Assembly: GCA_027923505.1 (NCBI GenBank)
Contig: BROI01000022.1
Location: forward strand, 620,001-668,940
Reading direction: 5' to 3'
Length of the DNA: 48,940 nt
Origin: Mayamaea pseudoterrestris
Lineage: Eukaryota
Of the stretch, positions 11,924-48,262 are shown one piece after another. Position 1 is the stretch's first letter. Each line of letters begins with the position of its first letter. The notes beneath the pieces are model-generated. The model did no database searches and was not told where the DNA came from. It worked only from the letters and a program-made list of their open reading frames with translations. The translations under genes were made by a program, and so were the position numbers.

Positions 11924-12164
11924 GCACGCAATGTCGAGCCATCATGCTGAGGAAGATTAATGTCATGTCTTAGCGGTTCTTTTCAAGTACCGAACGGACA
12001 CAACGTGACAGAAAATGCGCCTCGCCTCGTTCTTTCCTCCGATCTTCCATCCACATCCCGCGACCTTCCATCCTCTTCCATCATGTAATTATTCACGCTG
12101 CGCCGAGACGAGCATCAAGCCGACTGCTCTTTCCAAAAGTTTATTGGTTGTGAGGAAAAGTGTC

Positions 12165-28478: not shown

Positions 28479-29768
28479 ATGCACCGCCATACTCGGTGTC
28501 TGTCATGGTGGCTGGTGATCGCATTGACAATTGTCTCTGCTGTAACGGCAGAAGGAGAAACTGCATCATCGAGCGCATCGCCGCCAGCAGACTCCAGTAG
28601 TGAAGGAAACGCAGAGTCGACTCCACCAAAAAAAGCTGCTCGCACATATGACTTTGACATTGAAAATACAGACTGGGGTACCTATCATGATCCTCAAGGC
28701 GTCTTTTGCGGCAAGTATGACTGCTACAAGATTCTAGGATTTGACTACGAAAACTTTGGTTCTCCGCAACAAAAGATTATCACGCAACACTATCGATCAC
28801 TTTCGCGCCACTGGCATCCCGACAAGTCGAAACATCCCGAAGCCAAGGAACGTTTTGTCAAGATTGCCCGAGCCTACGAAGTCTTGAGCAATAGCGAACT
28901 GCGCAAAGACTACGATGATCTGCGATACGACCCGCAAAAGTACTACATGAAGCATGGTGCAAGCGTCTTGTGGAACTATGCGCCTCAAACCGATACTGCC
29001 GTTGTAATTATCATGCTGCTGCTAGTCGCCAACTTGTTTGCGTGGCTCGCACAAAAGCATCGCTGGCAGCAAGTGGCGGACCGACTCGTCAAGGCGGCGC
29101 TCGAAGACTGGACGCCCAGTCAAGGAGGTACGCCGGAGTCAAAGGAGCTGCGCGAGCATGCCATGCAAGTCTTGGAGGAGCGCGAGCAAGCTGCGGCTGC
29201 CAAGGAGGCGAGTGTGACGAATAAGACTGCTTCCGAAGCAGCAGCCACGCCTTCCAAGTCGACTGCCAGCGCCAAGAAGCAGACGAAGAAAGTGAAAGAC
29301 AAGCTTTCTGGTAAGGAGAGGAAGCAAAAGGAAATGGATGCATTGAAATCAATCATTGTCGAGATTGTTAGCGAGATGAGGGACTTTGGAGGTGGCTACC
29401 ACTTGCCAACCTGGCGTGACTTGCTGATTATATCCTTGCTCAAGTTTCCTTTTCGAGTCGTCAAGAATATGGCATGGTTGAGCACGTACTATGCTCGGCG
29501 GCTGCGGGGCCTGCCATTGAGTCACGACGAAAAGCGAGTCTTGACGGAGCGAGCAGTCGGACCCATTATCTGGGATACTTCATCCGATGAGCAACGCGAG
29601 GTACTTGTCAAGCGCGAGCTTTGGGTTGTTGCGAATCTGTCAGAGTGGTCCGAGGAACAAGACTATGAAAAGCTTAGTAACGGGGAGAAGAAGTTATTGA
29701 AAAAGATGAAAAAGAAAGGAATCAGAAACCCTGAAGGCGACATCAATGACTTGCTCAAGGAAGACTGA
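28479..29768 (+). CDS. DNAJC25: DnaJ-domain ER membrane co-chaperone, DNAJC25-like
   Basis: Signal peptide, FCGKYDCYKILG, a J-domain with WHPDK and KIARAYEVL, then YAPQTD followed by a TM helix. Confidence 0.85.
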   Translation: MHRHTRCLSWWLVIALTIVSAVTAEGETASSSASPPADSSSEGNAESTPPKKAARTYDFDIENTDWGTYHDPQGVFCGKYDCYKILGFDYENFGSPQQKIITQHYRSLSRHWHPDKSKHPEAKERFVKIARAYEVLSNSELRKDYDDLRYDPQKYYMKHGASVLWNYAPQTDTAVVIIMLLLVANLFAWLAQKHRWQQVADRLVKAALEDWTPSQGGTPESKELREHAMQVLEEREQAAAAKEASVTNKTASEAAATPSKSTASAKKQTKKVKDKLSGKERKQKEMDALKSIIVEIVSEMRDFGGGYHLPTWRDLLIISLLKFPFRVVKNMAWLSTYYARRLRGLPLSHDEKRVLTERAVGPIIWDTSSDEQREVLVKRELWVVANLSEWSEEQDYEKLSNGEKKLLKKMKKKGIRNPEGDINDLLKED

Positions 29769-29883
29769 TAGTTGTGGGCATTCATTCATAACCACAGGCT
29801 TGTGTAGCAGACCCTAAGCAAGATAGAAAAACTACAGTAAAGCGCATCTATGACTGTGCATCGTGCAAGTGTATTCTGTAGAG

Positions 29884-30740
29884 TATGGACATTTGAAAAT
29901 TATGGCATCTGCTGGCTGAGACCGGTGAGAACTTCTCACCAGTCCCATTGCATTCTACCAAGGGACCAGCCAGGCAATCCATCTTGTAGTGCACATGATA
30001 AAAGAATGTTAACACCATTCTGGCTTAATTTGGGCCTACACATGGCTCAAGGTATGGGCTATTGAATATCACAGCCAGCTGCTGTCCACAGAGACACTAG
30101 CTTGTCATCTTGTTTTGTGGCGCATCTGAAATAAGGATGTATTGTGACAGCCATGACTCATTAAACCCCGCCACCCCACCCAAGGGAACAAGTATTGAAC
30201 TAGTTTGCTTCGGGTCCTCAACAGCACTGCTTGATTTGGGCAGTCCACATGCCTAGAGAGACACTAGCTTGTCATCTTGTTTTGTGGCGCATCTGAAATA
30301 TGGATGTTAGCACCATTCTGGCTTGATTTGGGCATACACATGGCTCAAGGTATGGGCATTTGAAAATTACGGCATCTGCTGGCTGAGACTGATGAGAACT
30401 CCTCACCAGTCACATTGCAGTCAACCAAGGGGCAAGCCAGGCAATCTTCCATGTAGCAGACCTGAAATAAGGATGTTAGCACCATTCTGGCTTGATTTGG
30501 GCATACACATGGCTCAAGGTTTGGACATTTGCCAGTCACATTGCCGTCCACTGAGGGACCAGCCAAGCAATCCATCTTGTAGCGCACCTGAAATACGGAT
30601 GTTAGCACCATTCTGGCTTGATTTGGGCATGCACATGGCTCAAGGTATGAGCGTCTGACAATCATGGCACCTGCTGCTTGAGACTGGTGACAAGTTGTCA
30701 CCAATCACACTCATTGCAGTCCATAGAGACACTAGCCTGT
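29884..30740 (-). repeat. Degenerate copies of the 169-bp satellite A in inverted orientation
   Basis: Reads as the reverse complement of A (ggcatctgc.ggctgagac.ggtga.aa.tt.tcacc; ccatcttgtag.gca..tgaa; gatgttagcaccattctgg), with indels and an exact 44-bp duplication at 30090 and 30257. Confidence 0.85.
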
Positions 30741-30743
30741 GTA

Positions 30744-31811
30744 TGTGCGGAGTCTCATGGCAGAGGGATGGGCTTCACACCCAAGGTGACAAGCCTTTGC
30801 ATATTAATCCCTTAGAAAATGTATTTTCTTTGTATTCCCAGAATTGGCAGGCCATTCTGGCAGTCTGAAGTGCCACTTGAGGTGCACTGCTAGTAGATCC
30901 AACAAGTTGATGGATCTGCCGAGTCTCACCATGACATACATGGTGGTGGAGACTGGAATGGGTGGGTGCAACTGACCCAAGCATTGGCCCATCATGACAC
31001 CAAACATGAATTGAAATGGATTGGGGGGCTCAACAGGCAACAATGATGGTTTGTGTAGCCAAAAAGGGTGCACGGCTGGCACATTCAATAAATGGTTGAA
31101 TGTGCGGAGTCTCATGGCAAAGGGATGGGTTTCACACCCAAGGTGACAAGCCTTTGCGTATTAATCCCTTAAAAAATGTATATTCTTTGTATTCCTGAAC
31201 TGGCAGGCCATTCTGGCAGTCTGGAGTGCCACTTGAGGTGGGCTGCTAGCAGATCCCACAAGGTGTTGGATCTGCTGAGTCTCACCATGACATACATGGT
31301 GGTGGAGACTGGAATGGGTGGGTGCAACTGACCCAAGCATTGGCCCATCATGACACCAAACATGAATTGAAATGGATTGGGGGGCTCAACAGGCAACAAT
31401 GATGGTTTGTGTAGCCAAAAAGGGTGCACGGCTGGCACATTCAATAAATGGTTGAATGTGCGGAGTCTCATGGCAAAGGGATGGGTTTCACACCCAAGGT
31501 GACAAGCCTTTGCGTATTAATCCCTTAAAAAATGTATATTCTTTGTATTCCTGAACTGGCAGGCCATTCTGGCAGTCTGGAGTGCCACTTGAGGTGGGCT
31601 GCTAGCAGATCCCACAAGGTGTTGGATCTGCTGAGTCTTACCATGTCATACATGGTGGTGGAGACTGGAATGGGTGGGTGCAACTGACCCAATCATTGGC
31701 CCATCATGACACCAAACATGAATGGAAATGGATTGGGGGGCTCAACAGGCATGAATGATGGTTGGTGTAGCCAAAAAGGGTGCATGGGTGGCACATTCAA
31801 CAATTGGTTAA
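30744..31811 (+). repeat. Satellite B (356-357 bp), ~3 copies
   Basis: tgtgcggagtctcatggca recurs at 30744, 31101 and 31457. Confidence 0.95.
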
Positions 31812-33430
31812 AGGCACCTACAGCAAGCCCTGTAGGTGCCCACATTACACCAGAATGGTGCCAACATCATTATTCAGGCTGCGCTACAACATGGTAGGCT
31901 TGGCAGGTGTCTCAGGGAATGGCAATGTATTTGGTGAAAACTTGCCACCAGTCTCAGCCCACAGATGCCATGACATTCAAACGCCCCTACAGCAAGCCCT
32001 GTAGGCGCCCACATTACACCAGAATGGTGCCAGCATCATTATACAGGCTGCGCTACAAGATGGTAGGCTTGGCGGGTGTCTCAGGGAATGGCAATGTATT
32101 TGGTGACAACTTGTCACCAGTCTCACCCCACAGATGTTGTGAGATTCAAACGCCCCTACAGCCAGCCCTGTAGGTGCCCCCATTACATAAAAATGGTGCC
32201 AACATCATTATACAGGCTGCGCTACAAGATGGTAGGCTTGGCGGGTGTCTCAGGGAATGGCAATGTATTTGGTGACAACTTGTCACCAGTCTCAGCCCTC
32301 AGATGCCGTGACATTCAAACGCCCCTACAGCCAGCCCTGTAGGTGCCCAAATTACACCGGAATGGTGCCAACCCTCATTATTCAGGCTGCGCTACAAGAT
32401 GGTAGGCTTGGCGGGTGTCTCAGGGAATGGCAATGTATTTGGTGACAACTTGTCACCAGTCTCAGCCCCCAGATGCCTTGACATTCAAACTCCCCAACAG
32501 CAAGCCCTGTTGGTGCCCCCATTACACCAGAATGGTGCCAACATCATTATTCAGGCTGCGCTACAAGATGGTAGGCTTGGTGGGTGTCTCAGGGAATGGC
32601 AATGTATTTGGTGACAAATTGTCACCAGTCTCAGCCCGCAGATGCCGTGACATTCAAACGCCCCTACAGCAAGCCCTGTAGGTGCCCAAATTACACCAGA
32701 ATGGTGCCAACATCATTATTCAGGCTGCGCTACAAGATGGTAGGCTTGGCGGGTGTCTCAGGGAATGGCAATGTATTTGGTGACAACTTGTCACCAGTCT
32801 CAGCCCGCAGATGCCGTGACATTCAAACGCCCCTACAGCAAGCCCTGTAGGTGCCCCCATTACACCAGAATGGTGCCAACATCATTATGCAGGCTGCGCT
32901 ACAAGATGGTAGGCTTGGTGGGTGTTTCAGGGAATGGCAATGTATTTGGTGACAACTTGTCACCAGTCTCAGCCCGCAGATGCCGTGACATTCAAACGCC
33001 CTTACAGCAAGCACTGTAGGTGCCCAGATTACTCCAGAATGGTGCCAACATCATTATTCAGGCTGCGCTACAAGATGGTAGGCTTGGCGGGTGTCTCAGG
33101 GAATGGCAATGTATTTGGTGACAACTTGTCACCAGTCTCAGCCCGCAGATGCCTTGACATTCAAACGCCCCAACAGCAAGTCCTGTAGGTGCCACCATTA
33201 CACCAGAATGGTGCCAACATCAGTATTCAGGCTGCGCTACAAGATGGTAGGCTTGGTGGGTGTCTCAGGGAATGGCAATGTATTTGGTGACAACTTGTCA
33301 CCAGTCTCAGCCCGCAGATGTTGTGACATTCAAACGCACCTACAGCAAGCCCTGTAGGTGCCCCCATTACACCAGAATGGTGCCAACATCATTTTTAAGG
33401 CTGCGCTACAAGTTGGTACCATTGGTGGGT
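31812..33430 (+). repeat. Satellite A (169 bp), ~9.5 copies
   Basis: tggtgacaacttgtcaccagtctcag recurs every 169 bp, and the ORF track repeats with the same period. Confidence 0.97.
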
Positions 33431-34237
33431 GTTTGGCAGGCCATTCTGGCAGTCTGAAGTGCCACTTGAGGTGCACTGCTAGTAGATTCAACAAGGTGTT
33501 GGATCTGCTGAGTCTCACCATGACATACATGGTGGTGGAGACTGGAATGGGTGGGTGCAACTGACCCAAGCATTGGCCCATCATGACACCAAACATGAAG
33601 TAAAATGGATTGAGGGGCTCAACAGGCAAAAATGATGGTTCGTGTGGCCAAAAAGGGTACATGGCTGGCACATTCAACTAATGGTTGAATGTGCTGAGTC
33701 TCATGGCAAAGGGATGGGTTTCACACCCAAGGTGACAAGCCTTTGCGTACTAATCACCTAAAAAACAAATGCTCTTTGTATTTCAGAATTGGCAGGCCAT
33801 TCTGGCAGTCTGAAGTGCCACTTGAGGTGCACTGCTAGTAGATTCAACAATTTGTTGAATCTGCCGAGTCTCACCATGACATACATGGTGGTGGAGACTG
33901 GAATGGGTGGGTGCAACCAACCCAAGCATTGGCAAATCATGACACCAAACATGAATTGAAATGGATTGAGGGGCTCATCAGGCAACAATGAAGGTTCGTG
34001 TAGCCAAAAAGGGTGCACGGCTGGCACATTCAACCAATGGTTGAATGTGCGGAGTCTCATGGCAAATGGATGGGTTTCACACCCAAGGTGACAAGCCTTT
34101 GCGCTCTTTTTACTTAAAAAATGTATTTTCTTTGTATTCCAGAACTGGCAGGCTATTCTGGCAGTCTGAAGTGCTACTTGAGGTGCGCTGCTAGCAGATC
34201 CAACAAGGTGTTGGATCTGCCGAGTCTCACCATGACA
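33431..34237 (+). repeat. Satellite B, second block (~2.3 copies; last monomer interrupted, resumes at ~42244)
   Basis: Same sequence as 30744-31811. It stops at ...gagtctcaccatgaca. Confidence 0.93.
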
Positions 34238-37200
34238 AATTGTTGAATGTGCTAGCAGTGAGCCATGCTTTAACTACAGGATCATCAGCTTTGCCTGCTA
34301 AGAAATCCAACCCCTTTCAGTTAATGTTTGTTGACATTTTGATCCAATGCTGGGGTGACCATCACCCCAATATCCACCAGCCTGGCTGCCATGGTGAGAC
34401 TCAGCAGATCCAATAACTTGTTGGATCTGCCAGCAGTGCACCTCAGCTGGTACACAGACCGCCAGGATGGCCTGCAGACCCAAGAATATCAAAACCAAAA
34501 TACATATGATACAATTGGACCAATAGCCATGTCAATTGTGGTGTGGAACGCAGCATTGTGCCATGAGACTGCGCACATTCAACAAGTTGTTGAATGTACT
34601 TGCAGTGCACCCTTTTTGGTTATAGGATCATCAGCCTTGCCTGCTAAGCCATCCAACCCCTTTCCACTGATGTTTGTTAACATTTGATCCAATGCTGGAG
34701 TGACTATCACCCCAATATCCACCAGCCTGGCTGCCATGGTGCGAGTCAGCAGATCCAATAAGTTGTTCGATCTGCCAGTGGTGCACCTCAGCAGGTACAC
34801 AGACAGCAGAATGGCTTGCAGACCAAAGAATATTAAAACCATATTACATATAATACAATTGGACCAATAGTCATGTCAATTGTGGTGTGGAACGCAGCAT
34901 TGTGCCATGAGACTGCGCACATTCAACAAGTTGTTGAATGTGCTAGCAGTGCACCCTTTTTGGCTATAGGATCATCAGCCTTGCCTGCTAAGCCATCCAA
35001 CCCCTTTCCACTAATGTTTGTTGACATTTTGATCCAATGCTGGGGTGACTATCACCCCAATATCCACCAGCCTGGCTGCCATGGTGAGACCCGGCAGATC
35101 CAATAACTTGTTGGATCTGCCAGCAGTGCACCTCAGCTGGTACACAGACCGCCAGGATGGCCTGCAGACCCAAGAATATCATAACCAAAATACATATGAT
35201 ACAATTGGACCAATAGCCATGTCAATTGTGGTGTGGAACGCAGCATTGTGCCATGAGACTGCGCACATTCAACAAGTTGTTGAATGTGCTAGCAGTGCAC
35301 CCTTTTTGGCTATAGGATCATCAGCCTTGCCTGCTAAGCCATCCAACCCCTTTCCACTAATGTTTGTTGACATTTTGATCCAATGCTGGGGTGACTATCA
35401 CCCCAATATCCACCAGCCTGGCTGCCATGGTGAGACTCGGCAGATCCAATAACTTGTTGGATCTGCCAGTGGTGCACCTCAGCTGGTACACAGACAGCCA
35501 GAATGGCCTGCAGACCCAAGAATATCAAAACCAAAATACATATGATACAATTGGACCAATAGTCATGTCAATTGTGGTGTGGAACGCAGCATTGTGCCAC
35601 GAGACTGCGCACATTCAACAAGTTGTTGAATGTGCTAGCAGTGCACCCTTTTTGGCTATAGGATCATCAGCCTTGCCTGCTAAGCCATCCAACCCCTTTC
35701 CACTAATGTTTGTTGACATTTTGATCCAATGCTGGGGTGACTATCACCCCAATATCCACCAGCCTGGCTGCCATGGTGAGACTCGGCAGATCCAATAACT
35801 TGTTGGATCTGCCAGCAGTGCACCTCAGCTGGTACACAGACCACCAGGATGGCCTGCAGACCCAAGAATATCAAAACCAAAATACATATGATACAATTGG
35901 ACCAATAGTCATGTCAATTGTGGTGTGGAACGCAGCATTGTGCCATGAGACTGCGCACATTCAACAAGTTGTTGAATGTGCTAGCAGTGAGCCATGCTTT
36001 AACTACAGGATCATCAGCCTTGCCTGCTAAGCCATCCAACCCCTTTCCACTAATGTTTGTTGACATTTTGAGCCAATGCTGGGGTGACTATCACCCCAAT
36101 ATCCACCAGCCTGGCTGCCATGGTAAGACTCGGCAGATCCAATAAGTTGTTGCATCTGCCAGCGGTGCACCTCAGCTGGTACACAGACAGCCAGAATGGC
36201 CTGCAGACCCAAGAATATCAAAACCAAAATACATATGATACAATTGGACCAATAGTCATGTCAATTGTGGTGTGGAACGCAGCATTGTGCCATGAGACTG
36301 CGCACATTCAACAAGTTGTTGAATGTGCTAGCAGTGCACCCTCTTTGGCTATAGGATCATCAGCCTTGCCTGCTAAGCCATCCAACCCCTTTCCACTAAT
36401 GTTTGTTGACATTTTGATCCAATGCTGGGGTGACTATCACCCCAATATCCACCAGCCTGGCTGCCATGGTGAGACCTGGCAGATCCAATAACTTGTTGGA
36501 TCTGCCAGCAGTGCACCTCAGCTGGTACACAGACAGCCAGAATGGCCTGCAGACCCAAGAATATCAAAACCAAAATACATATGATACAATTGGACCAATA
36601 GTCATGTCAATTGTGGTGTGGAACGCAGCATTGTGCCATGAGACTGCGCACATTCAACAAGTTGTTGAATGTGCTAGCAGTGCACCCTTTTGGCTATAGG
36701 ATCATCAGCCTTGCCTGCTAAGCCATCCAACCCCTTTCCACTAATGTTTGTTGACATTTTGAGCCAATGCTGGAGTGACTATCACCCCAATATCCACCAG
36801 CCTGGCTGCCATGGTGAGACTCGGCAGATCCAATAAGTTGTTGGATCTGCCAGTGGTGCACCTCAGCTGGTACACAGACAGCCAGAATGGCCTGCAGACC
36901 CAAGAATATCAAAACCAAAATACATATGATACAATTGGACCAATAGTCATGTCAATTGTGGTGTGGAACGCAGCATTGTGCCATGAGACTGCGCACATTC
37001 AACAAGTTGTTGAATGTGCTAGCAGTGCACCCTTTTTGGCTATAGGATCATCAGCCTTGCCTGCTAAGCCATCCAACCCCTTTCCACTAATGTTTGTTGA
37101 CATTTTGAGCCAATGCTGGGGTGACTATCACCCCAATATCCACCAGCCTGGCTGCCATGGTGAGACTCGGCAGATCCAATAAGTTGTTGGATCTGCCAGC

Positions 37201-40200
37201 GGTGCACCTCAGCTGGTACACAGACTGCCAGGATGGCCTGCAGACCCAAGAATATCAAAACCAAAATACATATGATACAATTGGACCAATAGTCATGTCA
37301 ATTGTGGTGTGGAACGCAGCATTGTGCCATGAGACTGCGCACATTCAACAAGTTGTTGAATGTGCTAGCAGTGCACCCTTTTGGCTATAGGATCATCAGC
37401 CTTGCCTGCTAAGCCATCCAACCCCTTTCCACTAATGTTTGTTGACATTTTGATCCAATGCTGGGGTGACTATCACCCCAATATCCACCAGCCTGGCTGC
37501 CATGGTGAGACTCGGCAGATCCAATAACTTGTTGGATCTGCCAGCAGTGCACCTCAGCTGGTACACAGACCGCCAGGATGGCCTGCAGACCCAAGAATAT
37601 CAAAACCAAAATACATATGATACAATTGGACCAATAGTCATGTCAATTGTGGTGTGGAACGCAGCATTGTGCCATGAGACTGCGCACATTCAACAAGTTG
37701 TTGAATGTGCTAGCAGTGCACCCTTTTTGGCTATAGGATCATCAGCCTTGCCTGCTAAGCCATCCAACCCCTTTCCACTAATGTTTGTTGACATTTTGAG
37801 CCAATGCTGGGGTGACTATCACCCCAATATCCACCAGCCTGGCTGCCATGGTGAGACCTGGCAGATCCAATAACTTGTTGGATCTGCCAGCAGTGCACCT
37901 CAGCTGGTACACAGACAGCCAGAATGGCCTGCAGACCCAAGAATATCAAAACCAAAATACATATGATACAATTGGACCAATAGTCATGTCAATTGTGGTG
38001 TGGAACGCAGCATTGTGCCATGAGACTGCGCACATTCAACAAGTTGTTGAATGTGCTAGCAGTGAGCCATGCTTTGGGCTATAGGATCATCAGTCTTGCC
38101 TGCTAAGCCATCCAACCCCTTTCCACTAATGTTGGTTGACATTTTGAGCCAATGCTGGAGTGACTATCACCCCAATATGCACCAGCCTGGCTGCCATGGT
38201 GAGACTCGGCAGATCCAATAAGTTGTTGGATCTGTCAGTGGTGCACCTCAGCTGGTACACAGACAGCTAGAATGGCCTGCAGACCAAAGAATATCAAAAC
38301 CAAAATACATATGATACAATTGGACCAAAAGTCACGTCAATAGTGGTGCGGAACGCAGCATTATGCCATGAGACTGCGCACATTCAACAAGTTGTTGAAT
38401 GTGCTAGCAGTGAGCCATGCTTTAACTACAGGATCATCAGCCTTGCCTGCTAAGCCATCCAACCTGTTTCCACTAATGTTTGTTGACATTTTGAGCCAAT
38501 GCTGGGGTGACTATCACCCCAATATCCACCAGCCTGGCTGCCATGGTGAGACCTGGCAGATCCAATAACTTGTTGGATCTGCCAGCAGTGCACCTCAGCT
38601 GGTACACAGACCACCAGGATGGCCTGCAGACCCAAGAATATCAAAACCAAAATACATATGATACAATTGGACCAATAGTCATGTCAAATTTGGTGTGGAA
38701 CGCAGCATTGTGCCACGAGACTGCGCACATTCAACAAGTTGTTGAATGTGCTAGCAGTGCACCCTTTTTGGCTATAGGATCATCAGCCTTGCCTGCTAAG
38801 CCATCCAACCCCTTTCCACTAATGTTTGTTGACATTTTGAGCCAATGCTGGGGTGACTATCACCCCAATATCCACCAGCCTGGCTGCCATGGTGAGACTC
38901 GGCAGATCCAATAAGTTGTTGGATCTGCCAGTGGTGCACCTCAGCTGGTACACAGACAGCCAGAATGGCCTGCAGACCCAAGAATATCAAAACCAAAATA
39001 CATATGATACAATTGGACCAATAGTCACGTCAATTGTGGCGTGGAACACAGCATTGTGCCATGAGACTGCGCACATTCAACAAGTTGTCGAATGTGCTAG
39101 CAGTGAACCATGCTTTGGGCTACAGGATCATCCGCCTTGCCTGCTAAGCCATCTAACCCCTTTCCACTAATGTTGGTTAATATTTTGATCCAATGCTGGG
39201 GTGACTAACACCCCAATATCCACCAGCCTGTCTGCCATGGTGAGACGTGCCATGAGACTGCGCACATTCAACAAGTTGTTGAATGTGCTAGCAGTGCACC
39301 CTCTTTGGCTATAGGATCATCAGCCTTGCCTGCTAAGCCATCCAACCCCTTTCCACTAATGTTTGTTGACATTTTGATCCAATGCTGGGGTGACTATCAC
39401 CCCAATATCCACCAGCCTGGCTGCCATGGTGAGACCTGGCAGATCCAATAACTTGTTGGATCTGCCAGCAGTGCACCTCAGCTGGTACACAGACAGCCAG
39501 AATGGCCTGCAGACCCAAGAATATCAAAACCAAAATACATATGATACAATTGGACCAATAGTCATGTCAATTGTGGTGTGGAACGCAGCATTGTGCCATG
39601 AGACTGCGCACATTCAACAAGTTGTTGAATGTGCTAGCAGTGCACCCTTTTGGCTATAGGATCATCAGCCTTGCCTGCTAAGCCATCCAACCCCTTTCCA
39701 CTAATGTTTGTTGACATTTTGAGCCAATGCTGGAGTGACTATCACCCCAATATCCACCAGCCTGGCTGCCATGGTGAGACTCGGCAGATCCAATAAGTTG
39801 TTGGATCTGCCAGTGGTGCACCTCAGCTGGTACACAGACAGCCAGAATGGCCTGCAGACCCAAGAATATCAAAACCAAAATACATATGATACAATTGGAC
39901 CAATAGTCATGTCAATTGTGGTGTGGAACGCAGCATTGTGCCATGAGACTGCGCACATTCAACAAGTTGTTGAATGTGCTAGCAGTGCACCCTTTTTGGC
40001 TATAGGATCATCAGCCTTGCCTGCTAAGCCATCCAACCCCTTTCCACTAATGTTTGTTGACATTTTGAGCCAATGCTGGGGTGACTATCACCCCAATATC
40101 CACCAGCCTGGCTGCCATGGTGAGACTCGGCAGATCCAATAAGTTGTTGGATCTGCCAGCGGTGCACCTCAGCTGGTACACAGACTGCCAGGATGGCCTG

Positions 40201-42241
40201 CAGACCCAAGAATATCAAAACCAAAATACATATGATACAATTGGACCAATAGTCATGTCAATTGTGGTGTGGAACGCAGCATTGTGCCATGAGACTGCGC
40301 ACATTCAACAAGTTGTTGAATGTGCTAGCAGTGCACCCTTTTGGCTATAGGATCATCAGCCTTGCCTGCTAAGCCATCCAACCCCTTTCCACTAATGTTT
40401 GTTGACATTTTGATCCAATGCTGGGGTGACTATCACCCCAATATCCACCAGCCTGGCTGCCATGGTGAGACTCGGCAGATCCAATAACTTGTTGGATCTG
40501 CCAGCAGTGCACCTCAGCTGGTACACAGACCGCCAGGATGGCCTGCAGACCCAAGAATATCAAAACCAAAATACATATGATACAATTGGACCAATAGTCA
40601 TGTCAATTGTGGTGTGGAACGCAGCATTGTGCCATGAGACTGCGCACATTCAACAAGTTGTTGAATGTGCTAGCAGTGCACCCTTTTTGGCTATAGGATC
40701 ATCAGCCTTGCCTGCTAAGCCATCCAACCCCTTTCCACTAATGTTTGTTGACATTTTGAGCCAATGCTGGGGTGACTATCACCCCAATATCCACCAGCCT
40801 GGCTGCCATGGTGAGACCTGGCAGATCCAATAACTTGTTGGATCTGCCAGCAGTGCACCTCAGCTGGTACACAGACAGCCAGAATGGCCTGCAGACCCAA
40901 GAATATCAAAACCAAAATACATATGATACAATTGGACCAATAGTCATGTCAATTGTGGTGTGGAACGCAGCATTGTGCCATGAGACTGCGCACATTCAAC
41001 AAGTTGTTGAATGTGCTAGCAGTGAGCCATGCTTTGGGCTATAGGATCATCAGTCTTGCCTGCTAAGCCATCCAACCCCTTTCCACTAATGTTGGTTGAC
41101 ATTTTGAGCCAATGCTGGAGTGACTATCACCCCAATATGCACCAGCCTGGCTGCCATGGTGAGACTCGGCAGATCCAATAAGTTGTTGGATCTGTCAGTG
41201 GTGCACCTCAGCTGGTACACAGACAGCTAGAATGGCCTGCAGACCAAAGAATATCAAAACCAAAATACATATGATACAATTGGACCAAAAGTCACGTCAA
41301 TAGTGGTGCGGAACGCAGCATTATGCCATGAGACTGCGCACATTCAACAAGTTGTTGAATGTGCTAGCAGTGAGCCATGCTTTAACTACAGGATCATCAG
41401 CCTTGCCTGCTAAGCCATCCAACCTGTTTCCACTAATGTTTGTTGACATTTTGAGCCAATGCTGGGGTGACTATCACCCCAATATCCACCAGCCTGGCTG
41501 CCATGGTGAGACCTGGCAGATCCAATAACTTGTTGGATCTGCCAGCAGTGCACCTCAGCTGGTACACAGACCACCAGGATGGCCTGCAGACCCAAGAATA
41601 TCAAAACCAAAATACATATGATACAATTGGACCAATAGTCATGTCAAATTTGGTGTGGAACGCAGCATTGTGCCACGAGACTGCGCACATTCAACAAGTT
41701 GTTGAATGTGCTAGCAGTGCACCCTTTTTGGCTATAGGATCATCAGCCTTGCCTGCTAAGCCATCCAACCCCTTTCCACTAATGTTTGTTGACATTTTGA
41801 GCCAATGCTGGGGTGACTATCACCCCAATATCCACCAGCCTGGCTGCCATGGTGAGACTCGGCAGATCCAATAAGTTGTTGGATCTGCCAGTGGTGCACC
41901 TCAGCTGGTACACAGACAGCCAGAATGGCCTGCAGACCCAAGAATATCAAAACCAAAATACATATGATACAATTGGACCAATAGTCACGTCAATTGTGGC
42001 GTGGAACACAGCATTGTGCCATGAGACTGCGCACATTCAACAAGTTGTCGAATGTGCTAGCAGTGAACCATGCTTTGGGCTACAGGATCATCCGCCTTGC
42101 CTGCTAAGCCATCTAACCCCTTTCCACTAATGTTGGTTAATATTTTGATCCAATGCTGGGGTGACTAACACCCCAATATCCACCAGCCTGGCTGCCATGG
42201 TGAGACCTGGCAGATCCAGATCCAATAAGTTGTTGGATCTT
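34238..42241 (-). repeat. Satellite C (345-347 bp), ~23 copies; diverged reverse complement of B
   Basis: 346-bp period. catggtgagactcggcagatccaataacttgttggatctgccagcagtgcacctc is the near reverse complement of the B segment gaggtgcactgctagtagatccaacaagttgatggatctgccgagtctcaccatg. Confidence 0.95.
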
Positions 42242-42419
42242 TTACATGGTGATTCAGACTGGAATGGGTGGGTGCAACTGACCCAAGCATTGGCCCATCA
42301 TGACACCAAACATGAATTGAAATGGATTGGGGGGCTCAACAGGCAACAATGATGGTTTGTGTGGCCAAAAAGGGTGCATGGCTGGCACATTCAACCATTG
42401 GTTAAAGGCATTGGTTAAA
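42242..42419 (+). repeat. Remainder of the interrupted B monomer plus the B-to-A junction
   Basis: tacatggtg...gactggaatgggtgggtgcaactg...gcacattcaaccattggttaaaggca, with a short cattggttaaagg duplication. Confidence 0.9.
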
Positions 42420-45400
42420 GGCACCTACAGCAAGCCCTGTAGGTGCCCCTATTACACCAGAATGATGCCAACATCATTATTCAGGCTGCGCTACAAGATG
42501 GTAGGCTTGGCGGGTGTCTCAGGGAATGGCAATGTATTTGGTGACAACTTGTCACCAGTCTCAGCCCGCAGATGCCGTGACATTCAAACGCCCCAACAGC
42601 AAGCCCTGTAGGTGCCCCCATTACACCAGAATGGTGCCAACATCATTATTCAGGCTGCGCTACAAGATGGTAGGCTTGGCGGGTGTCTCAGGGAATGGCA
42701 ATGTATTTGGTGACAACTTGTCACCAGTCTCAGCCCGCAGATGCCGTGACATTCAAACGCCCCTACAGCAAGCCCTGTAGGTGCCCAAATTACACCAGAA
42801 TGGTGCCAACATCATTATTCAGGCTGCGCTACAAGATGGTAGGCTTGGCGGGTGTCTCAGGGAATGGCAATGTATTTGGTGACAAGTTGTCACCAGTCTC
42901 AGCCCGCAGATGCCGTGACATTCAAACGCACCTACAGCAAGCCCTGTAGGTGCCCAAATTACACCAGAATGGTGCCAACATCATTATTCAGGCTGCGCTA
43001 CAAGATGGTAGGCTTGGCGGGTGTAACAGGGCATGGCAATGTATTTGGTGACAACTTGTCACCAGTCTCAGCCCGCAGATGCCGTGACATTCAAACGCCC
43101 CAACAGCAAGCCCTGTAGGTGCCCCCATTACACCAGAATGGTGCCAACATCATTATTCAGGCTGCGCTACAAGATGGTAGGCTTGGTGGGTGTCTCAGGG
43201 AATGGCAATGTATTTGGTGACAACTTGTCACCAGTCTCAGCCCGCAGATGCCGTGACATTCAAACGCACCTACAGCAAGCCCTGTAGGTGCCCAGATTAC
43301 ACCAGAATGGTGCCAACATCATTATTCAGGCTGCGCTACAAGATGGTAGGCTTGGCGGGTGTCTCAGGGAATGGCAATGTATTTGGTGACAACTTGTCAC
43401 CAGTCTCAGCCCGCAGATGCCGTGACATTCAAACGCCCCAACAGCAAGCCCTGTAGGTGCCCCCATTACACCAGAATGGTGCCAACATCATTATTCAGGC
43501 TGCGCTACAAGATGGCAGGCTTGGCGGGTGTCTCAGGGAATGGCAATGTATTTGGTGACAACTTGTCACCAGTCTCAGCCCGCAGATGCCATGACATTCA
43601 AATGCCCCAACAGCAAGCCCTGTAGATGCCCAGATTACTCCAGAATGGTGCCAACATCATTATTCAGGCTGCGCTACAAGATGGTAGGCTTGGCGGGTGT
43701 CTCAGGGAATGGCAATGTATTTGGTGACAACTTGTCACCAGTCTCAGCCCGCAGATGCCGTGACATTCAAACGCCCCAACAGCAAGCCCTGTAGGTGCCC
43801 AAATTACACCAGAATGGTGCCAACATCATTATTCAGGCTGCGCTACAAGATGGTAGGCTTGGTGGGTGTCTCAGGGAATGGCAATGTATTTGGTGACAAC
43901 TTGTCACCAGTCTCAGCCCGCAGATGCCGTGACATTCAAACGCACCTACAGCAAGCCCTGTAGGTGCCCAAATTACACCAGAATGGTGCCAACATCATTA
44001 TTCAGGCTGCGCTACAAGATGGTAGGCTTGGCGGGTGTCTCAGGGAATGGCAATGTATTTGGTGACAACTTGTCACCAGTCTCAGCCCGCAGATGCTGTG
44101 ACATTCAAACGCCCTAACAGCAAGCCCTGTAGGTGCCCCCATTACACCAGAATGGTGCCAACATCATGTCTCAGGGAAAGGCAATGTATTTGGTGACAAC
44201 TTGTCACCAGTCTCAGCCCGCAGATGCCATGACATTCAAACGCACCTACAGCAAGCCCTGTAGGTGACCAAATTACACCAGAATGGTGCCAACATCATTA
44301 TTCCGGCTGCGCTACAAGATGGTAGGCTTGGCGGGTGTCTCAGGGAATGGCAATGTATTTGGTGACAACTTGTCACCAGTCTCAGCCCGCAGATGCCGTG
44401 ACATTCAAACGCCCCAACAGCAAGCCCTGTAGGTGCCCCCATTACACCAGAATGGTGCCAACATCATTATTCAGGCTGCGCTACAAGATGGTAGGCTTGG
44501 CGGGTGTCTCAGGGAATGGCAATGTATTTGGTGACAACTTGTCACCAGTCTCAGCCCGCAGATGCCGTGACATTCAAACGCACCTACAGCAAGCCCTGTA
44601 GGTGCCCAGATTACTCCAGAATGGTGCCAACATCATTATTCAGGCTGCGCTACAAGATGGCAGGCTTGGCGGGTGTCTCAGGGAATGGCAATGTATTTGG
44701 TGACAACTTGTCACCAGTCTCAGCCCGCAGATGCCGTGACATTCAAATGCCCCAACAGCAAGCCCTGTAGATGCCCAGATTACTCCAGAATGGTGCCAAC
44801 ATCATTATTCAGGCTGCGCTACAAGATGGTAGGCTTGGCGGGTGTCTCAGGGAATGGCAATGTATTTGGTGACAACTTGTCACCAGTCTCAGCCCGCAGA
44901 TGCCGTGACATTCAAACGCCCCTACAGCAAGCCCTGTAGGTGCCCAAATTACACCAGAATGGTGCCAACATCATTATTCAGGCTGCGCTACAAGATGGTA
45001 GGCTTGGCGGGTGTCTCAGGGAATGGCAATGTATTTGGTGACAACTTGTCACCAGTCTCAGCCCGCAGATGCCGTGACATTCAAACGCCCCAACAGCAAG
45101 CCCTGTAGGTGCCCCCATTACACCAGAATGGTGCCAACATCATTATTCAGGCTGCGCTACAAGATGGTAGGCTTGGCGGGTGTCTCAGGGAATGGCAATG
45201 TATTTGGTGACAACTTGTCACCAGTCTCAGCCCGCAGATGCCGTGACATTCAAACGCCCCTACAGCAAGCCCTGTAGGTGCCCAAATCACACCAGAAATG
45301 GTGCCAATTTCATTATTCAGGCTGCGCTACAAGATGGTAGGCTTGGCGGGTGTCTCAGGAAATGGCGATGTATTTGGTGACAACTTGTCACCAGTCTCAG

Positions 45401-45738
45401 CCCGCAGATGCCGTGACATTCAAACGCCCCAACAGCAAGCCCTGTAGGTGCCCAGATTACTCCAGAATGGTGCCAACATCATTATTCAGGCTGCGCTACA
45501 AGATGGTAGGCTTGGCGGGTGTCTCAGGGAATGGCAATGTATTTGGTGACAACTTGTCACCAGTCTCAGCCCGCAGATGCCGTGACATTCAAACGCCCCA
45601 ACAGCAAGCCCTGTAGGTGCCCCCATTACACCAGAATGGTGCCAACATCATTATTCAGGCTGCGCTACAAGATGGTAGCAATGGTGGGTGTCTCAGGGAA
45701 TGGCAATGTATTTGGTGACAAGTTGTCACCAGTCTCAG
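42420..45738 (+). repeat. Satellite A (169 bp), ~20 copies, one with a 38-bp deletion near 44167
   Basis: 169-bp period. The array ends abruptly after the hairpin + gtctcag at 45738. Confidence 0.97.
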
Positions 45739-46789: not shown

Positions 46790-48262
46790 ATGAATCTTCA
46801 TTTGGGCGTTTGTCACGCGGATGAAACCAAGGACAATGATCAACATCCAGAGGACGCAAATTCACATGCGGAGTCGCGTCGCGGCTTGCTGAAAAAGCTC
46901 ATTGATCACTACTCGTCAACACCCATTGTCGAAGACGTCGACTGTGCAGCAACGACAGACAATACAGATACAACATTATATGACAATGAAGTTAAGCCAT
47001 TCTCCAAGCTATCCTTGCTAACAGCATCGGAACGACAGTTTTTGGAACACCTGGTCCAGAATGGAGACCTGGAGTCGATTGAGGCTGCCTCCTTGCGTCT
47101 AACAGATCTATTTCCACCGGAGGAGCTGGATGAACCTCACGATGAGCAGCAGCAAGTGCAAGCAGCAACGTCGAGTGGTGGACTTTCATTGAGCAAGAGC
47201 AAACGCGACTCAATGCTGCAGCAGGAACTCTTTCGCCTGCACGAGACTCAAAAAATGGCACCGAGTCGAGTGTTGCAGCACATGTCGCTGGTTCATCGCA
47301 ACTCGATTTTGGATGAGGAGGATGCAACACCCGCTACAAATACCGACTTGAGTTCCTTTCTTTCGGCACCAACGGATGAATTTAGTGGCTCCTTGAGTCA
47401 AGCATCCATGAGCTCCGATTGGAATACATTCAAAGACATTTCAACTTGGGTCGATGGAGGTGTTGGCGTTGAAGTGACGAGTGAAAATGGCGTGGTGGCC
47501 AAGGCTACTGAAACCAAGGCTCCCTTTAAAATTCTGGGCACAACGGCGGACGACGTATCCTGTCACCCACATGTGCTGAGTCCACCACTCATGGAGTCGC
47601 TCTTGGCCTTTTTACCGGAAAGCTTGACGGATTTCAACTTTTTCCTCAAGTACAGCCTGGTGCGAGACGGAGCTGGTCTGTGGACACTCCTTCGCAACAT
47701 TCGCGCCAGCAGCAATTGCTTTTTGGCGATTGAAACGGTTGACGGCCACGTCTTTGGAGCCTTTACAAGCCAGACTTGGAAAGTGTCGCAAGGCTGGTAT
47801 GGCACCAAGGATTCGTTTCTTTTCAAGCTACGACATTCTAGGTTGGAGAGCGTTCCATCAATATTGGAACAAGTAAAGAATGAATCCGAGATACAAGTCT
47901 ATCCATATCGTCCTGGCAATGTTTCGCTTCAAAAGTGCTGCAAAAGCGGAATCATGATGGGCCAAGGTGAATTGCTGCCGGCAATTGCGGAAGGAGACCA
48001 TTATGGATTCGCCCTGTACTTGGACCCTTCACTGCACAACGGCACAACTGGCACTAGTGAAACGTTTGGCAATCCATGTCTTGTTTCGCCGGAAATGCGT
48101 GGGTCGACTTTTGAAGTTTCCAACATTGAGGTTTGGACGCTTACTCCGCACGTTACGGTTCAAGACGCTGAACGAGCCGAACTATCTACCATGTTTTTGA
48201 CTGGTGAACGACATGAGAAGAATCTGAACTTGATGGACATTATCGTCGGAGGATCAATTTAA
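46790..48262 (+). CDS. TLDc-domain protein (OXR1/NCOA7-like)
   Basis: LKYSLVRDGAGLWTLL, LAIETVDGHVFGAFTS, YGTKDSFLF, GFALYLD, SETFGNPCL and FEVSNIEVW. Confidence 0.92.
   Translation: MNLHLGVCHADETKDNDQHPEDANSHAESRRGLLKKLIDHYSSTPIVEDVDCAATTDNTDTTLYDNEVKPFSKLSLLTASERQFLEHLVQNGDLESIEAASLRLTDLFPPEELDEPHDEQQQVQAATSSGGLSLSKSKRDSMLQQELFRLHETQKMAPSRVLQHMSLVHRNSILDEEDATPATNTDLSSFLSAPTDEFSGSLSQASMSSDWNTFKDISTWVDGGVGVEVTSENGVVAKATETKAPFKILGTTADDVSCHPHVLSPPLMESLLAFLPESLTDFNFFLKYSLVRDGAGLWTLLRNIRASSNCFLAIETVDGHVFGAFTSQTWKVSQGWYGTKDSFLFKLRHSRLESVPSILEQVKNESEIQVYPYRPGNVSLQKCCKSGIMMGQGELLPAIAEGDHYGFALYLDPSLHNGTTGTSETFGNPCLVSPEMRGSTFEVSNIEVWTLTPHVTVQDAERAELSTMFLTGERHEKNLNLMDIIVGGSI

What the first reader, a model, noticed from the sequence alone, without database searches (positions are those of the whole stretch)
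29884..45738. 16-kb modular, hairpin-rich composite satellite locus embedded between housekeeping genes
Seen: three monomer families (169, 356-357 and 346 bp) arranged as inverted-A / B3 / A~10 / B3[inverted C~23] / A~20, with sharp edges ~115 bp after DNAJC25 and ~1 kb before the TLDc gene. Every monomer carries dyad symmetries. Knowledge: monomers of 170-180 bp or twice that with dyads typify centromeric satellites (alpha-satellite 171 bp, Arabidopsis 178 bp), whereas characterised Phaeodactylum centromeres are short low-GC tracts without satellite. Inference: a candidate satellite-type centromere, a heterochromatin or small-RNA locus, or a repeat-built mobile element.
Basis: partly seen in the sequence, partly recalled or inferred. 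Interest (0 to 1): 0.85.

Follow-up and report, generated by a model that had tools for sequence, protein, structure and literature searches.

The report
Methylation-scarred satellite DNA island in a diatom
A 16-kb block of non-coding tandem repeats between ordinary genes of an unnamed diatom belongs to two satellite DNA families that are very abundant across its genome and look long-silenced by DNA methylation; nothing yet shows it is a centromere.

Summary

- There are two families, not three. C (346 bp) is the inverted homologue of B (356 bp), about 72% identical over the full length. A (169 bp) is unrelated to both.
- The ~350-bp unit is an old dimer. A 48-bp palindrome-centred box recurs every 169/177 bp.
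- The host is an unnamed raphid pennate diatom, not Phaeodactylum.

New findings:
- The locus is not private. In independent public runs, 13% and 7.6% of all contig records lie on it. Summed depth over A is about 10^4 times the flank.
- CpG observed/expected is 0.13-0.47 inside and about 1.0 outside, with sharp edges. CpG sites carry 6-13 times more transitions than other C/G sites. This is a 5mC-decay signature.
- Dyads occur in 54 of 54 copies and are kept by compensatory changes.
- The block is non-coding, with no Rfam or tRNA match.
- It lacks the low-GC signature of known diatom centromeres.

Best reading: a methylated heterochromatic outpost of the genome's major satellites. The centromere idea is untested (about 0.12). 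A mobile element is not supported.

The parts
28464..29768 (+). Left flanking gene: DnaJ-domain protein ORF (434 aa). Not part of the repeat; it marks the left boundary.
   Evidence: ORF; PF00226, E 5.7e-17. CpG o/e 0.87-1.05 in this stretch.
29884..30742 (-). A' block: diverged, inverted A-like monomers (about 4-5 copies, partly degenerate). It contains a stretch that is near single-copy in public runs.
   Evidence: hits at 29892-30040, 30354-30514, 30538-30640 and 30651-30704 on the minus strand, 70-83% to A; period 126 at 30406-30646; bin 30016-30239 has depth 151 in X1, while neighbouring bins have 10,000-84,000.
30743..31809 (+). B array, 3 monomers of 356 bp.
31810..33432 (+). A array 1, 9.6 monomers of 169 bp.
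   Evidence: Mean identity within the array is 0.938.
33433..34237 (+). B array 2: B positions 102-356, one full monomer, then B positions 1-194. It is cut in the loop of the palindrome CACCATG-ACATA-CATGGTG.
34235..42240 (+). C array, about 23 monomers of 346 bp. C is the inverted homologue of B (about 72% identical) and sits inside one B monomer.
   Evidence: Mean pairwise identity is 0.958.
36287..42206 (+). Two tandem copies of a 2,960-bp block (8.55 monomers), 99.97% identical. The junction at 39246/39247 is out of monomer register and lies in sequence shared by the two half-monomer boxes.
   Evidence: 1 mismatch in 2,960; junction sequence.
42243..42403 (+). Remainder (positions 195-355) of the B monomer split by the C array.
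42396..42423 (+). 13-bp tandem duplication at the second B-to-A junction. This junction is otherwise homologous to the first one at 31809/31820.
   Evidence: period 13, 2.2 copies; alignment of the two junctions.
42427..45738 (+). A array 2, 19.6 monomers of 169 bp, including one 131-bp deleted variant at 44117-44247. It ends at A position 138.
   Evidence: Mean identity is 0.946 within the array and 0.940 to array 1.
46790..48262 (+). Right flanking gene: TLDc-domain protein ORF (490 aa). Not part of the repeat.
   Evidence: PF07534, E 6e-30; diatom homologues.

Best explanation
The block is an interstitial, non-coding island of the two major satellite DNA families of an unnamed raphid pennate diatom.

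Family A has a 169-bp unit. A diverged, inverted subfamily, A', lies at the left edge.

The second family has a ~350-bp unit and occurs as two subfamilies in opposite orientation: B (356 bp) and C (346 bp). That unit is an old dimer. A 48-bp box centred on a 13-bp-arm palindrome recurs every 169/177 bp, so both families have a nucleosome-sized period.

Shown:
- the arrays and their layout
- homology between B and C
- the dimer structure of the ~350-bp unit
- absence of coding or known RNA content
- presence of both families far beyond this locus in independent sequencing runs
- a sharp-edged CpG-decay signature

Inferred:
- The island has long been CpG-methylated, silent heterochromatin in an otherwise unmethylated, gene-dense region.
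- It grows and rearranges in three ways: unequal exchange between monomers and between the half-monomer boxes (the 2,960-bp duplication); duplication of composite B-A blocks (the same B-to-A junction occurs twice); and breakage or insertion at hairpin-forming palindromes (the C array lies in the loop of a B palindrome).
- The dyad symmetry itself is maintained, either by selection for a hairpin/cruciform or a dimeric binding site, or by hairpin-templated repair.
- No cellular function specific to this locus, such as a centromere, is needed to explain it.
For: Arrays and layout.

B and C are homologous: full-length alignment; BLAST identity 69-76% across all copies.

A is unrelated to B/C: z between -0.2 and 1.6 against 300 shuffles.

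Dimer structure: the 48-bp box occurs twice per monomer, z 10.6 (B) and 14.6 (C), with 0 of 300 shuffles as high. There are 55 boxes at alternating 169/177-bp spacing. Between B and C the box columns are 87 of 96 identical, against 185 of 266 elsewhere (Fisher p 1.7e-5).

Non-coding:
- The periods 169, 356 and 346 are not multiples of 3.
- 0 of 10 array ORFs has a Pfam hit.
- The 135-aa C ORF has no homologue in the protein database.
- 0 Rfam matches at E<=1 and 0 tRNAs.

Genome-wide abundance:
- 71,546 of 555,133 contig records of X1 and 13,947 of 182,933 of X2 lie on window 28000-34700.
- From my arithmetic on its table 2, the DnaJ flank bins average 85 (X1) and 28 (X2).
- The A bins average 1.86 million and 218,000, the B bins 40,000 and 4,400, and the C bins 170,000 and 12,500.
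- A single locus with about 30 A copies cannot give this.

Methylation signature:
- CpG o/e is 0.32-0.40 in A, 0.13 in B and 0.18 in C, against 1.05 and 1.01 in the flanks.
- 31 inside windows have mean 0.24 and maximum 0.47. 65 outside windows have mean 1.04. The steps fall at both edges.
- Transitions at CpG versus other C/G sites, counted per cell: OR 9.6, 12.9 and 6.4.
- Counted per site: 6 of 10 versus 11 of 79; 3 of 8 versus 7 of 160; 3 of 6 versus 20 of 158 (p 0.0027, 0.0074, 0.037).
- TG and CA o/e are 1.55-1.98.
- Diatom genomes are described as isolated highly CG-methylated repeat/TE islands in an unmethylated genome (passages).

Dyads are maintained:
- On 38 of the 55 boxes (24 distinct rows), 94.2% of cells pair, against 22-37% when the partner is slid.
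- Pair 13/33 is GC in 16 rows and CG in 8. Pair 16/30 is CG in 13 rows and TA in 9.
- There are 18 both-side cells against 6.8 in shuffles (0 of 500 as high).
- A and A' dyad arms differ by a mirrored change, GTGACAA/TTGTCAC versus GTGAGAA/TTCTCAC (read).

Rearrangement. 5 of 7 independent junction ends lie inside palindromes that cover 19-23% of the monomers (P 0.009, post hoc).

Gene-dense surroundings.
Against: - One search used Logan contigs. The tool states that summed word depth is not a copy number. Contigs that fit several places, and error variants of a very deep repeat, inflate both counts and sums. The abundance is therefore only an order of magnitude (about 10^4 or more A monomers).
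- Runs X1 and X2 differ from the window by 1-3% in the flank, so they may be other haplotypes or strains.
- Methylation is inferred from mutation patterns, not measured. Low CpG in a satellite can partly be a founder effect of the amplified monomer. The variants counted are not all independent events.
- The compensatory changes in the box amount to about two or three events. Related rows can beat shuffles without any constraint, a warning the tool gives. G-T cells count as paired there (11 cells).
- A as a whole does not fold more stably than shuffles (z +0.63).
- No higher-order repeat pattern was found (lag identities 0.93-0.97 for A and 0.92-0.96 for C).
- The long-range layout and true length rest on the assembly alone. 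The 99.97% duplicate could be an assembly error, or the block could be collapsed.
- Nothing here excludes a centromeric or other function.
Confidence: 0.62

Rival explanations
1. Satellite-type regional centromere. The composite A/B/C array, possibly much longer in reality than assembled, is where CENH3 nucleosomes and the kinetochore assemble on this chromosome. The nucleosome-sized units and maintained palindromes would provide the non-B-form DNA thought to favour CENH3 deposition.
For: - The periods are nucleosome-sized: 169 bp, and 169/177 bp between boxes.
- Dyads are in every copy and are kept by compensatory change. Short dyad symmetries are reported as a feature of centromeric satellites (Kasinathan and Henikoff 2018; start of abstract seen in the listing).
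- A is extremely abundant. In many animals and plants centromeres contain large tandem-repeat arrays (Melters 2013; start of abstract in the listing).
- Orientation switches between blocks resemble the macro-dyad arrangement of Tribolium (peri)centromeric satellites (abstract).
- The total abundance would fit one large, assembly-collapsed array per chromosome.
Against: - Characterised diatom centromeres are short low-GC regions without repeats (P. tricornutum, passages; predicted for F. solaris at 36-42% GC and 1.4-2 kb, passages).
- This block has 46-53% GC and no 100-bp window at or below 32%.
- As assembled it is only 16 kb, with genes 0.1-1 kb away.
- An A-like variant abuts telomere-type repeats in run X6, so at least some arrays are chromosome-terminal.
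- All the fitting features are shared by non-centromeric satellites.
- No CENH3, Hi-C or genome-wide map could be examined.
Confidence: 0.12
2. Former or falsely joined chromosome ends. A-type arrays are subtelomeric, and the head-to-head A'(-) ... A(+) arrangement marks either an ancestral end-to-end fusion of two chromosomes or an assembly mis-join through shared satellite.
For: - In run X6 a loose end joins telomere-type CCCTAA repeats directly to an A-like variant in plus orientation (5 records).
- That is the orientation expected for the right-hand A array reading into unique sequence. The inverted A' array on the left has the mirror orientation.
- X1 contains contigs that join A' and A on opposite strands (three 'opposite strands' joints).
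Against: - No telomere remnant lies in the locus. There is 1 CCCTAA hexamer in 15.9 kb, no tandem pair, and no 18-mer within 5 mismatches.
- The middle of the block is B/C and more A in plus orientation, not a simple mirror.
- The telomere junction comes from a few short contigs of a run labelled as another organism, and it involves an A variant that is not the window's own.
- Both flanks are ordinary gene-dense sequence.
Confidence: 0.08
3. Repeat-built mobile element. The whole block is a non-autonomous transposon, or was delivered by one, with inverted subterminal A arrays as its ends.
For: The two outermost blocks are A-type in inverted orientation. Satellite spread into gene-rich regions by transposons or circular DNA has been proposed in Tribolium (abstract). 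The C array looks like a clean insertion into one B monomer.
Against: - No transposase or any Pfam domain in 10 of 10 array ORFs.
- No target-site duplication at 29884/45738 (read).
- The ends are out of register: the left end reaches about 30 nt further into the A unit than the right end, which stops at A position 138.
- The terminal blocks are only 70-83% alike.
Confidence: 0.04
4. The layout and size are partly an assembly product. The families are real, but the number of copies, the 2,960-bp duplicate and perhaps the order of blocks do not reflect the chromosome.
For: - Two 2,960-bp copies differ by 1 base while neighbouring monomers differ by 4-6%.
- The families are so abundant that assemblers are prone to collapse or mis-thread them.
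- No public contig longer than a few hundred bases lies on the arrays (table 8).
Against: - The out-of-register junction of the duplicate lies in sequence shared by the two half-monomer boxes. That is what a real unequal exchange would give.
- The left edge is bridged by an independent contig (X2 record 14).
- The split B monomer closes exactly across the C array (194|195).
Confidence: 0.25

Closest known systems
Euchromatic satellite DNAs of Tribolium castaneum (Cast1-Cast9) spread in gene-rich regions
   Same: Both have long arrays of satellite monomers embedded between genes. In both, the families are present at many places in the genome. Array exchange and insertion are the proposed mode of spread (abstract only).
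   Different: This is a different kingdom and an unrelated sequence. Genome-wide positions could not be mapped here. A CpG-methylation decay signature marks the island here. No eccDNA or transposon association was seen or testable.
Tribolium madens major and minor satellites with macro-dyad symmetries
   Same: Both have two related satellites derived from one element, intermingled arrays, orientation switches between blocks and conserved transition zones (abstract only). Here B and C derive from one unit in opposite orientation, and the same B-to-A junction occurs twice.
   Different: The Tribolium regions are multi-megabase, their inverted arms are near-identical, and they were localised by FISH. 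Here the block is 16 kb as assembled, the inverted partners are only 70-83% alike, and there is no cytology.
Centromeric satellites with nucleosome-sized units and short dyad symmetries (alpha satellite 171 bp, Arabidopsis 178 bp)
   Same: Unit lengths are 169 bp and 169/177 bp. Every unit carries dyads, and a conserved box is present. The dyad generalisation is from the start of the abstract of PMC5889037 (listing).
   Different: There is no evidence of CENH3 binding, of one array per chromosome, or of higher-order repeats. The array is 16 kb rather than hundreds of kb. GC is near 50%.
Characterised diatom centromeres (Phaeodactylum tricornutum; predicted in Fistulifera solaris)
   Same: Both are intergenic regions in a diatom chromosome.
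   Different: Those centromeres are low-GC, 0.5-2 kb and without repeats or conserved features (passages). This block is 46-53% GC, 16 kb and entirely repetitive.
CG-methylated repeat/TE islands of diatom genomes
   Same: Both are sharp islands in an otherwise unmethylated, gene-dense genome (passages). Here the island is inferred from a CpG o/e step of about 1.0 to 0.2-0.4 exactly at the array edges.
   Different: The described islands are mostly transposable elements. Here the island is pure satellite DNA, and methylation is inferred rather than measured.

Membership tests
Satellite DNA | Head-to-tail tandem arrays of a defined monomer | tested here: met
   periods 169, 356 and 346; 93-96% matches; copy-by-copy coordinates.
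Satellite DNA | Non-coding, and not a known RNA gene array | tested here: met
   The periods are not multiples of 3. 0 of 10 array ORFs has a Pfam hit. The C ORF has no protein homologue. 0 Rfam matches and 0 tRNAs.
Satellite DNA | High copy number in the genome beyond a single locus | tested here: met
   13% (X1) and 7.6% (X2) of all contig records lie on the stretch. Summed depth over A is about 10^4 times the flank, and over B/C 10^2-10^3 times. This is an order of magnitude only, because the tool warns that depth is not a copy number.
Satellite-type regional centromere | Nucleosome-sized unit with dyad symmetry or a protein-binding box | tested here: met
Satellite-type regional centromere | One principal array per chromosome | not testable with these tools
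   No whole genome is held. The metagenome scan gave only chance hits.
Satellite-type regional centromere | CENH3/CENP-A occupancy | not testable with these tools
   No ChIP data are reachable.
Satellite-type regional centromere | Higher-order repeat organisation | tested here: inconclusive
   Lag-identity profiles are nearly flat: A 0.93-0.97 and C 0.92-0.96. Lags 2 and 4 are slightly higher than lags 1 and 3 in A. The only large repeat is the 2,960-bp duplicate.
Diatom centromere as characterised in P. tricornutum | Cluster of 100-bp windows with GC <=32% (criterion from passages) | tested here: not met
   no such window in 29884-45738 (minimum 0.37). There is one in the whole 48.9-kb window, at 48251.
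Diatom centromere as characterised in P. tricornutum | Lack of repeats or conserved sequence features | tested here: not met
   The block consists entirely of tandem repeats.
DNA transposon with terminal inverted repeats | Target-site duplication and matching termini | tested here: not met
   Reading: the flanking bases differ. The left end extends about 30 nt further into the A unit than the right end. The terminal blocks are 70-83% alike.
DNA transposon with terminal inverted repeats | Transposase or other element-encoded protein (if autonomous) | tested here: not met
   0 of 10 ORFs has a Pfam domain.
CG-methylated repeat island (diatom type) | Cytosine methylation confined to the repeat | tested here: inconclusive
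   Only the mutational footprint was tested: CpG o/e of 0.24 inside versus 1.04 outside, with sharp steps, and an excess of CpG transitions. Direct methylation was not measurable.
Subtelomeric satellite | Arrays adjacent to telomere repeats | tested here: inconclusive
   There are no telomere repeats in the window. One loose-end consensus in run X6 joins telomere-type repeats to an A-like variant (5 records).

The most novel reading that the evidence does not exclude
The composite A/B/C arrays are the centromeres of this diatom, and each is much longer in the cell than in the assembly. The determinant would be the palindrome, which recurs once per nucleosome length and is kept by compensatory change, rather than the primary sequence. 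This would be the first satellite-based centromere in diatoms, whose known centromeres are short, low-GC and repeat-free. It would show that centromere type has switched within the group.
Probability: 0.12. Interest if true: 0.85.

Novelty: new member of a known kind. Interest (0 to 1): 0.5.

Why it matters
- Diatom genomes are usually described as poor in satellite DNA. My literature searches found no characterised diatom satellite family (full-text library only).
- This diatom has two families that together account for a noticeable share of all assembled contigs in independent runs. Much of its genome may therefore be missing or collapsed in assemblies.
- The sharp CpG-decay island shows that the diatom pattern of 'methylated island in an unmethylated genome' can be read from sequence alone, and that it applies to satellites as well as transposons.
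- The palindrome kept by mirrored substitutions is a compact case for asking whether satellites are constrained by DNA structure rather than sequence.
- The locus also gives a concrete, cheaply testable candidate for a satellite centromere in a group where only low-GC centromeres are known. This bears on the design of diatom artificial chromosomes.

Tried and rejected
- Whole-genome mapping was not possible, because no genome is held.
- Earlier findings of the scan: none for this genome. The sequence look-up gave 4 unrelated bacterial windows sharing 3 of 75 words. None was used.
- Sequencing runs: 8 listed from 2 studies, with no RNA holder listed, so expression and small RNAs could not be examined.
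The left 6.7 kb was laid instead, as the tool suggested. The right edge, the C array interior and the 39246/7 junction were therefore never laid. All runs were contigs, so parts without cover and the long-range order say nothing.
- A metagenome scan with a 19-nt conserved A motif returned 13 loci. All were single-site matches extending at most 31 nt, i.e. chance. This used the only metagenome scan, so synteny of DnaJ-TLDc in relatives could not be fetched.
- Rfam and tRNA searches found nothing.
- The protein search with the 135-aa C-array ORF, meant to find gene calls in other arrays and so count other contigs, returned 0 hits.
- My first half-versus-half test of B used overlapping segments and is void (first line). 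It was redone correctly.
- The batch fold call failed on a 150-base limit. Folding was done.
- Two regexes had the wrong spacing, so the zero counts for C pal2 and B pal1 are meaningless. They were replaced by the per-copy scan.
- Common origin of A and B/C: both have a palindrome with the core ACAA-N-TTGT followed by AGTCTCA, but at different spacing, and local alignment is not above shuffles. Rejected as unsupported.
- Telomere remnants inside the block: none.
- Higher-order repeats: none convincing.

Full report
**What is there**

Tandem Repeats Finder finds arrays with periods 169, 356 and 346 bp between 30.4 and 45.7 kb at 91-96% matches. BLAST of one reference monomer of each kind against the window gives the copy-by-copy map:
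- inverted, diverged A-like copies at 29892-30704 (70-83% to A)
- B x3 at 30743-31809
- A x9.6 at 31820-33432
- B from position 102 through two further units to position 194, at 33433-34237
- C x~23 at 34235-42240
- B positions 195-355 at 42243-42403
- A x19.6 at 42427-45738

No copy lies elsewhere in the window.

The block sits between a DnaJ-domain ORF ending at 29768 and a TLDc ORF starting at 46790. The 29 kb to the left is gene-dense, with ordinary genes: P-type ATPase, DUF819, ABC1 kinase, amino-acid kinase and EF-hand.

**Corrections to the anatomy**

C is not a third family.
- Every C copy aligns to the reverse complement of B over the whole unit at 69-76%. The consensus units align end to end.
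- A shows no similarity to B or C above 300 dinucleotide shuffles (z -0.2 to 1.6).
- So there are two families, one of them present as two subfamilies in opposite orientation.
- The left-hand inverted A-like copies are a diverged subfamily, A'. Most of it is also multi-copy in public runs, but one 224-bp bin (30016-30239) has near single-copy depth.

The ~350-bp unit is an old dimer.
- A 48-bp segment occurs twice per unit, half a unit apart (z 10.6 in B and 14.6 in C, 0 of 300 shuffles as high).
- The 55 boxes in the block alternate at 169 and 177 bp, so both families have a nucleosome-sized period.
- Between B and C the box columns are 91% identical (87 of 96), against 70% (185 of 266) for the rest (p 1.7e-5).

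**Dyads**

- Every full-length copy carries at least one dyad with arms of 7 bp or more: 28 of 28 A, 4 of 4 B and 22 of 22 C. The controls are 22 of 176 and 20 of 85 size-matched flank pieces.
- The longest arms are 9 bp in A, 11 bp in B and 13 bp in C.
- Overall folding energy is below shuffles for B (z -4.35) and C (z -3.25), but not for A (z +0.63).
- The central palindrome of the box is kept through mirrored changes. I aligned 38 of the 55 boxes, leaving out the 17 in the duplicated block; 24 rows were distinct. 94.2% of cells pair, against 22-37% with the partner slid.
- Pair 13/33 is G-C in 16 rows and C-G in 8. Pair 16/30 is C-G in 13 rows and T-A in 9.
- There are 18 both-side cells against 6.8 in shuffles, and none of 500 shuffles reaches that.
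- This amounts to about two or three events, and the tool warns that related rows can beat shuffles. The tool also counts G-T as paired (11 cells).
- The main A dyad differs from its A' counterpart by one mirrored change as well (read).

**How the block was built**

- Both B-to-A junctions are homologous. The second carries an extra 13-bp duplication. A composite B-A block was therefore duplicated.
- The C array splits one B monomer cleanly between positions 194 and 195, in the loop of a 7-bp-arm palindrome. The two ends of the C array lie in its own two palindromes.
- Counting independent junction ends, 5 of 7 lie inside palindromes that cover 19-23% of the units (P 0.009, post hoc).
- 36287-39246 and 39247-42206 are 2,960-bp tandem copies with one mismatch, equal to 8.55 monomers. 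Their junction lies in sequence shared by the two half-unit boxes. An unequal exchange between box paralogues would give exactly this, but an assembly error cannot be excluded.
- Monomers of the two A arrays are as alike between arrays (0.940) as within them (0.938, 0.946).
- No convincing higher-order periodicity is seen.

**Not coding, not a known RNA**

- The periods are not multiples of three.
- 0 of 10 array ORFs has a Pfam domain.
- The 135-aa C ORF has no homologue in the protein database.
- There is no Rfam match at E<=1 and no tRNA.

**Whose genome**

The TLDc protein's best outside match is 63-64% identical. Named hits are raphid pennate diatoms: Amphora, Epithemia, Nitzschia, Bacillariaceae and Seminavis. 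The organism is an unnamed diatom, not Phaeodactylum. Its own contig is 668,940 bp.

**The locus is not private**

Eight public runs from two studies hold parts of the stretch.

Records laid:
- X1: 71,546 of 555,133 contig records
- X2: 13,947 of 182,933
- X6: 772 of 812,177
- X7: 439 of 9,369,044

Mean summed word depth, from my arithmetic on table 2:

| Region | X1 | X2 |
|---|---|---|
| Six DnaJ flank bins | 85 | 28 |
| Seven A bins | 1.86 million | 218,000 |
| Five B bins | 40,000 | 4,400 |
| Two C bins | 170,000 | 12,500 |

The tool warns that such sums are not copy numbers. Multi-fitting contigs and error variants of a very deep repeat inflate them. Even so, a locus with about 30 A copies cannot produce a 10^4-fold excess. 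A, and to a lesser degree C and B, are major satellites of this genome, probably at megabase scale.

Other points:
- The flank contigs differ from the window by 1-3%. X2 holds two haplotype contigs at 29276-29454, with 0 and 8 differences. These runs are therefore independent of the assembled haplotype.
- X2 record 14 (29425-29919) bridges the left edge.
- One loose-end consensus in X6 (5 records) joins telomere-type CCCTAA repeats to an A-like variant.
- Three joints in X1 link A' and A on opposite strands.

A scan of metagenome contigs with a conserved 19-nt A motif gave 13 loci, all chance single-site matches.

**Methylation footprint**

- CpG observed/expected is 0.32-0.40 in A, 0.13 in B and 0.18 in C, against 1.05 and 1.01 in the flanks.
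- In 500-bp windows it steps from 0.87 to 0.22 at the left edge and from 0.42 to 1.03 at the right edge. 31 inside windows have mean 0.24 and maximum 0.47. 65 outside windows have mean 1.04.
- This is not just a founder effect of the amplified unit. Among copies, transitions are 6-13 times commoner at CpG than at other C/G positions (p 1.3e-8, 1.1e-3 and 1.8e-5 by cells).
- The same holds by sites, with the duplicated C copies removed: 6 of 10 versus 11 of 79, 3 of 8 versus 7 of 160, and 3 of 6 versus 20 of 158 (p 0.0027, 0.0074, 0.037).
- TG and CA are in excess (o/e 1.55-1.98).
- This is the pattern expected from long-term 5-methylcytosine deamination.
- Passages of Hoguin et al. [quoted passage not shown] The picture here matches that. 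Methylation itself was not measured.

**Centromere question**

- Passages of the Diner et al. preprint define P. tricornutum centromeres by clusters of 100-bp windows at or below 32% GC. They state that these centromeres lack repeats.
- Passages of the Fistulifera solaris preprint predict centromeres of 36-42% GC and 1.4-2 kb without highly repeated elements.
- The block here is 46-53% GC, with no window at or below 32% (minimum 0.37). It fails that membership test.
- It does have the generic traits of satellite centromeres: nucleosome-sized units, dyads and a conserved box. Its abundance would be compatible with one large, assembly-collapsed array per chromosome.
- Non-centromeric satellites share all these traits. 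One variant is telomere-adjacent. The decisive tests (genome-wide map, CENH3) could not be run. I put the centromere reading at about 0.12.

**Mobile element**

There is no protein domain and no target-site duplication, and the ends are out of register and only 70-83% alike. This reading is not supported.

**Comparison with the literature**

Three full-text searches found no paper characterising a diatom satellite family: diatom with satellite DNA, centromere and tandem repeat; diatom with satDNA (5 papers, none on diatoms); and 'diatom genome' with satellite, subtelomeric and long-read. The library lacks most subscription journals, so this is not proof of absence.

The closest described phenomena are two Tribolium cases, both seen as abstracts only:
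- Tribolium castaneum satellites spread in gene-rich regions
- the Tribolium madens major and minor satellites, which derive from one element and are arranged with orientation switches and conserved transition zones

**Verdict**

The best explanation is a methylated, heterochromatic, interstitial island of the genome's two major satellite families, shaped by unequal exchange and palindrome-associated breakage (confidence 0.62). It is a new member of a known kind. It is of moderate interest for diatom genome biology, and a small chance remains of a much more interesting centromere role.

Noticed in passing
window 39246/39247 (copies 36287-39246 and 39247-42206): A 2,960-bp tandem duplicate with 1 mismatch, equal to 8.55 C monomers. 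Its junction is out of monomer register, in sequence shared by the two half-unit boxes. It is either a very recent unequal exchange or an assembly error.
   Followed up: partly
run X6, loose end at window place 32685: A consensus of 5 short records joins telomere-type CCCTAA repeats directly to an A-like variant. This suggests that some A-type arrays are chromosome-terminal. The same place shows an abundant A variant (92 records in X1, 37 in X2) that lacks the window's second A dyad.
   Followed up: partly
A dyad at A positions 113-131 and the B/C boxes (e.g. window 34908-34955): Both families carry a palindrome with the core ACAA-N-TTGT followed within 0-2 nt of its end by AGTCTCA, at different distances from the centre. 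Overall similarity of A to B/C is not above shuffles, so it may be chance or a shared binding motif.
   Followed up: partly
window 11501-12000: This is the only 500-bp window outside the block with low CpG o/e (0.41). It is also among the lowest-GC stretches (about 0.42) and lies between the DUF819 gene and the next long ORF.
   Followed up: no
window 5705-8221, 12015-15191, 20679-23693 (+ strand): Three long ORFs (838, 1058 and 1004 aa) have no Pfam family at E<=0.001. So does the 524-aa ORF at 2845-4419.
   Followed up: no
window 45739-46789: The 1-kb spacer between the last A copy and the TLDc start has normal CpG content (o/e 1.03). It holds minus-strand ORFs of 182 and 131 aa without Pfam hits. 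This could be a small unannotated gene or the TLDc promoter region.
   Followed up: partly
window 28000-29900 in runs X1 and X2: Flank contigs differ from the window by 1-3%. X2 has two contigs for 29276-29454, with 0 and 8 differences and depths 10.4 and 22.2. This is consistent with a heterozygous diploid or mixed strains.
   Followed up: no
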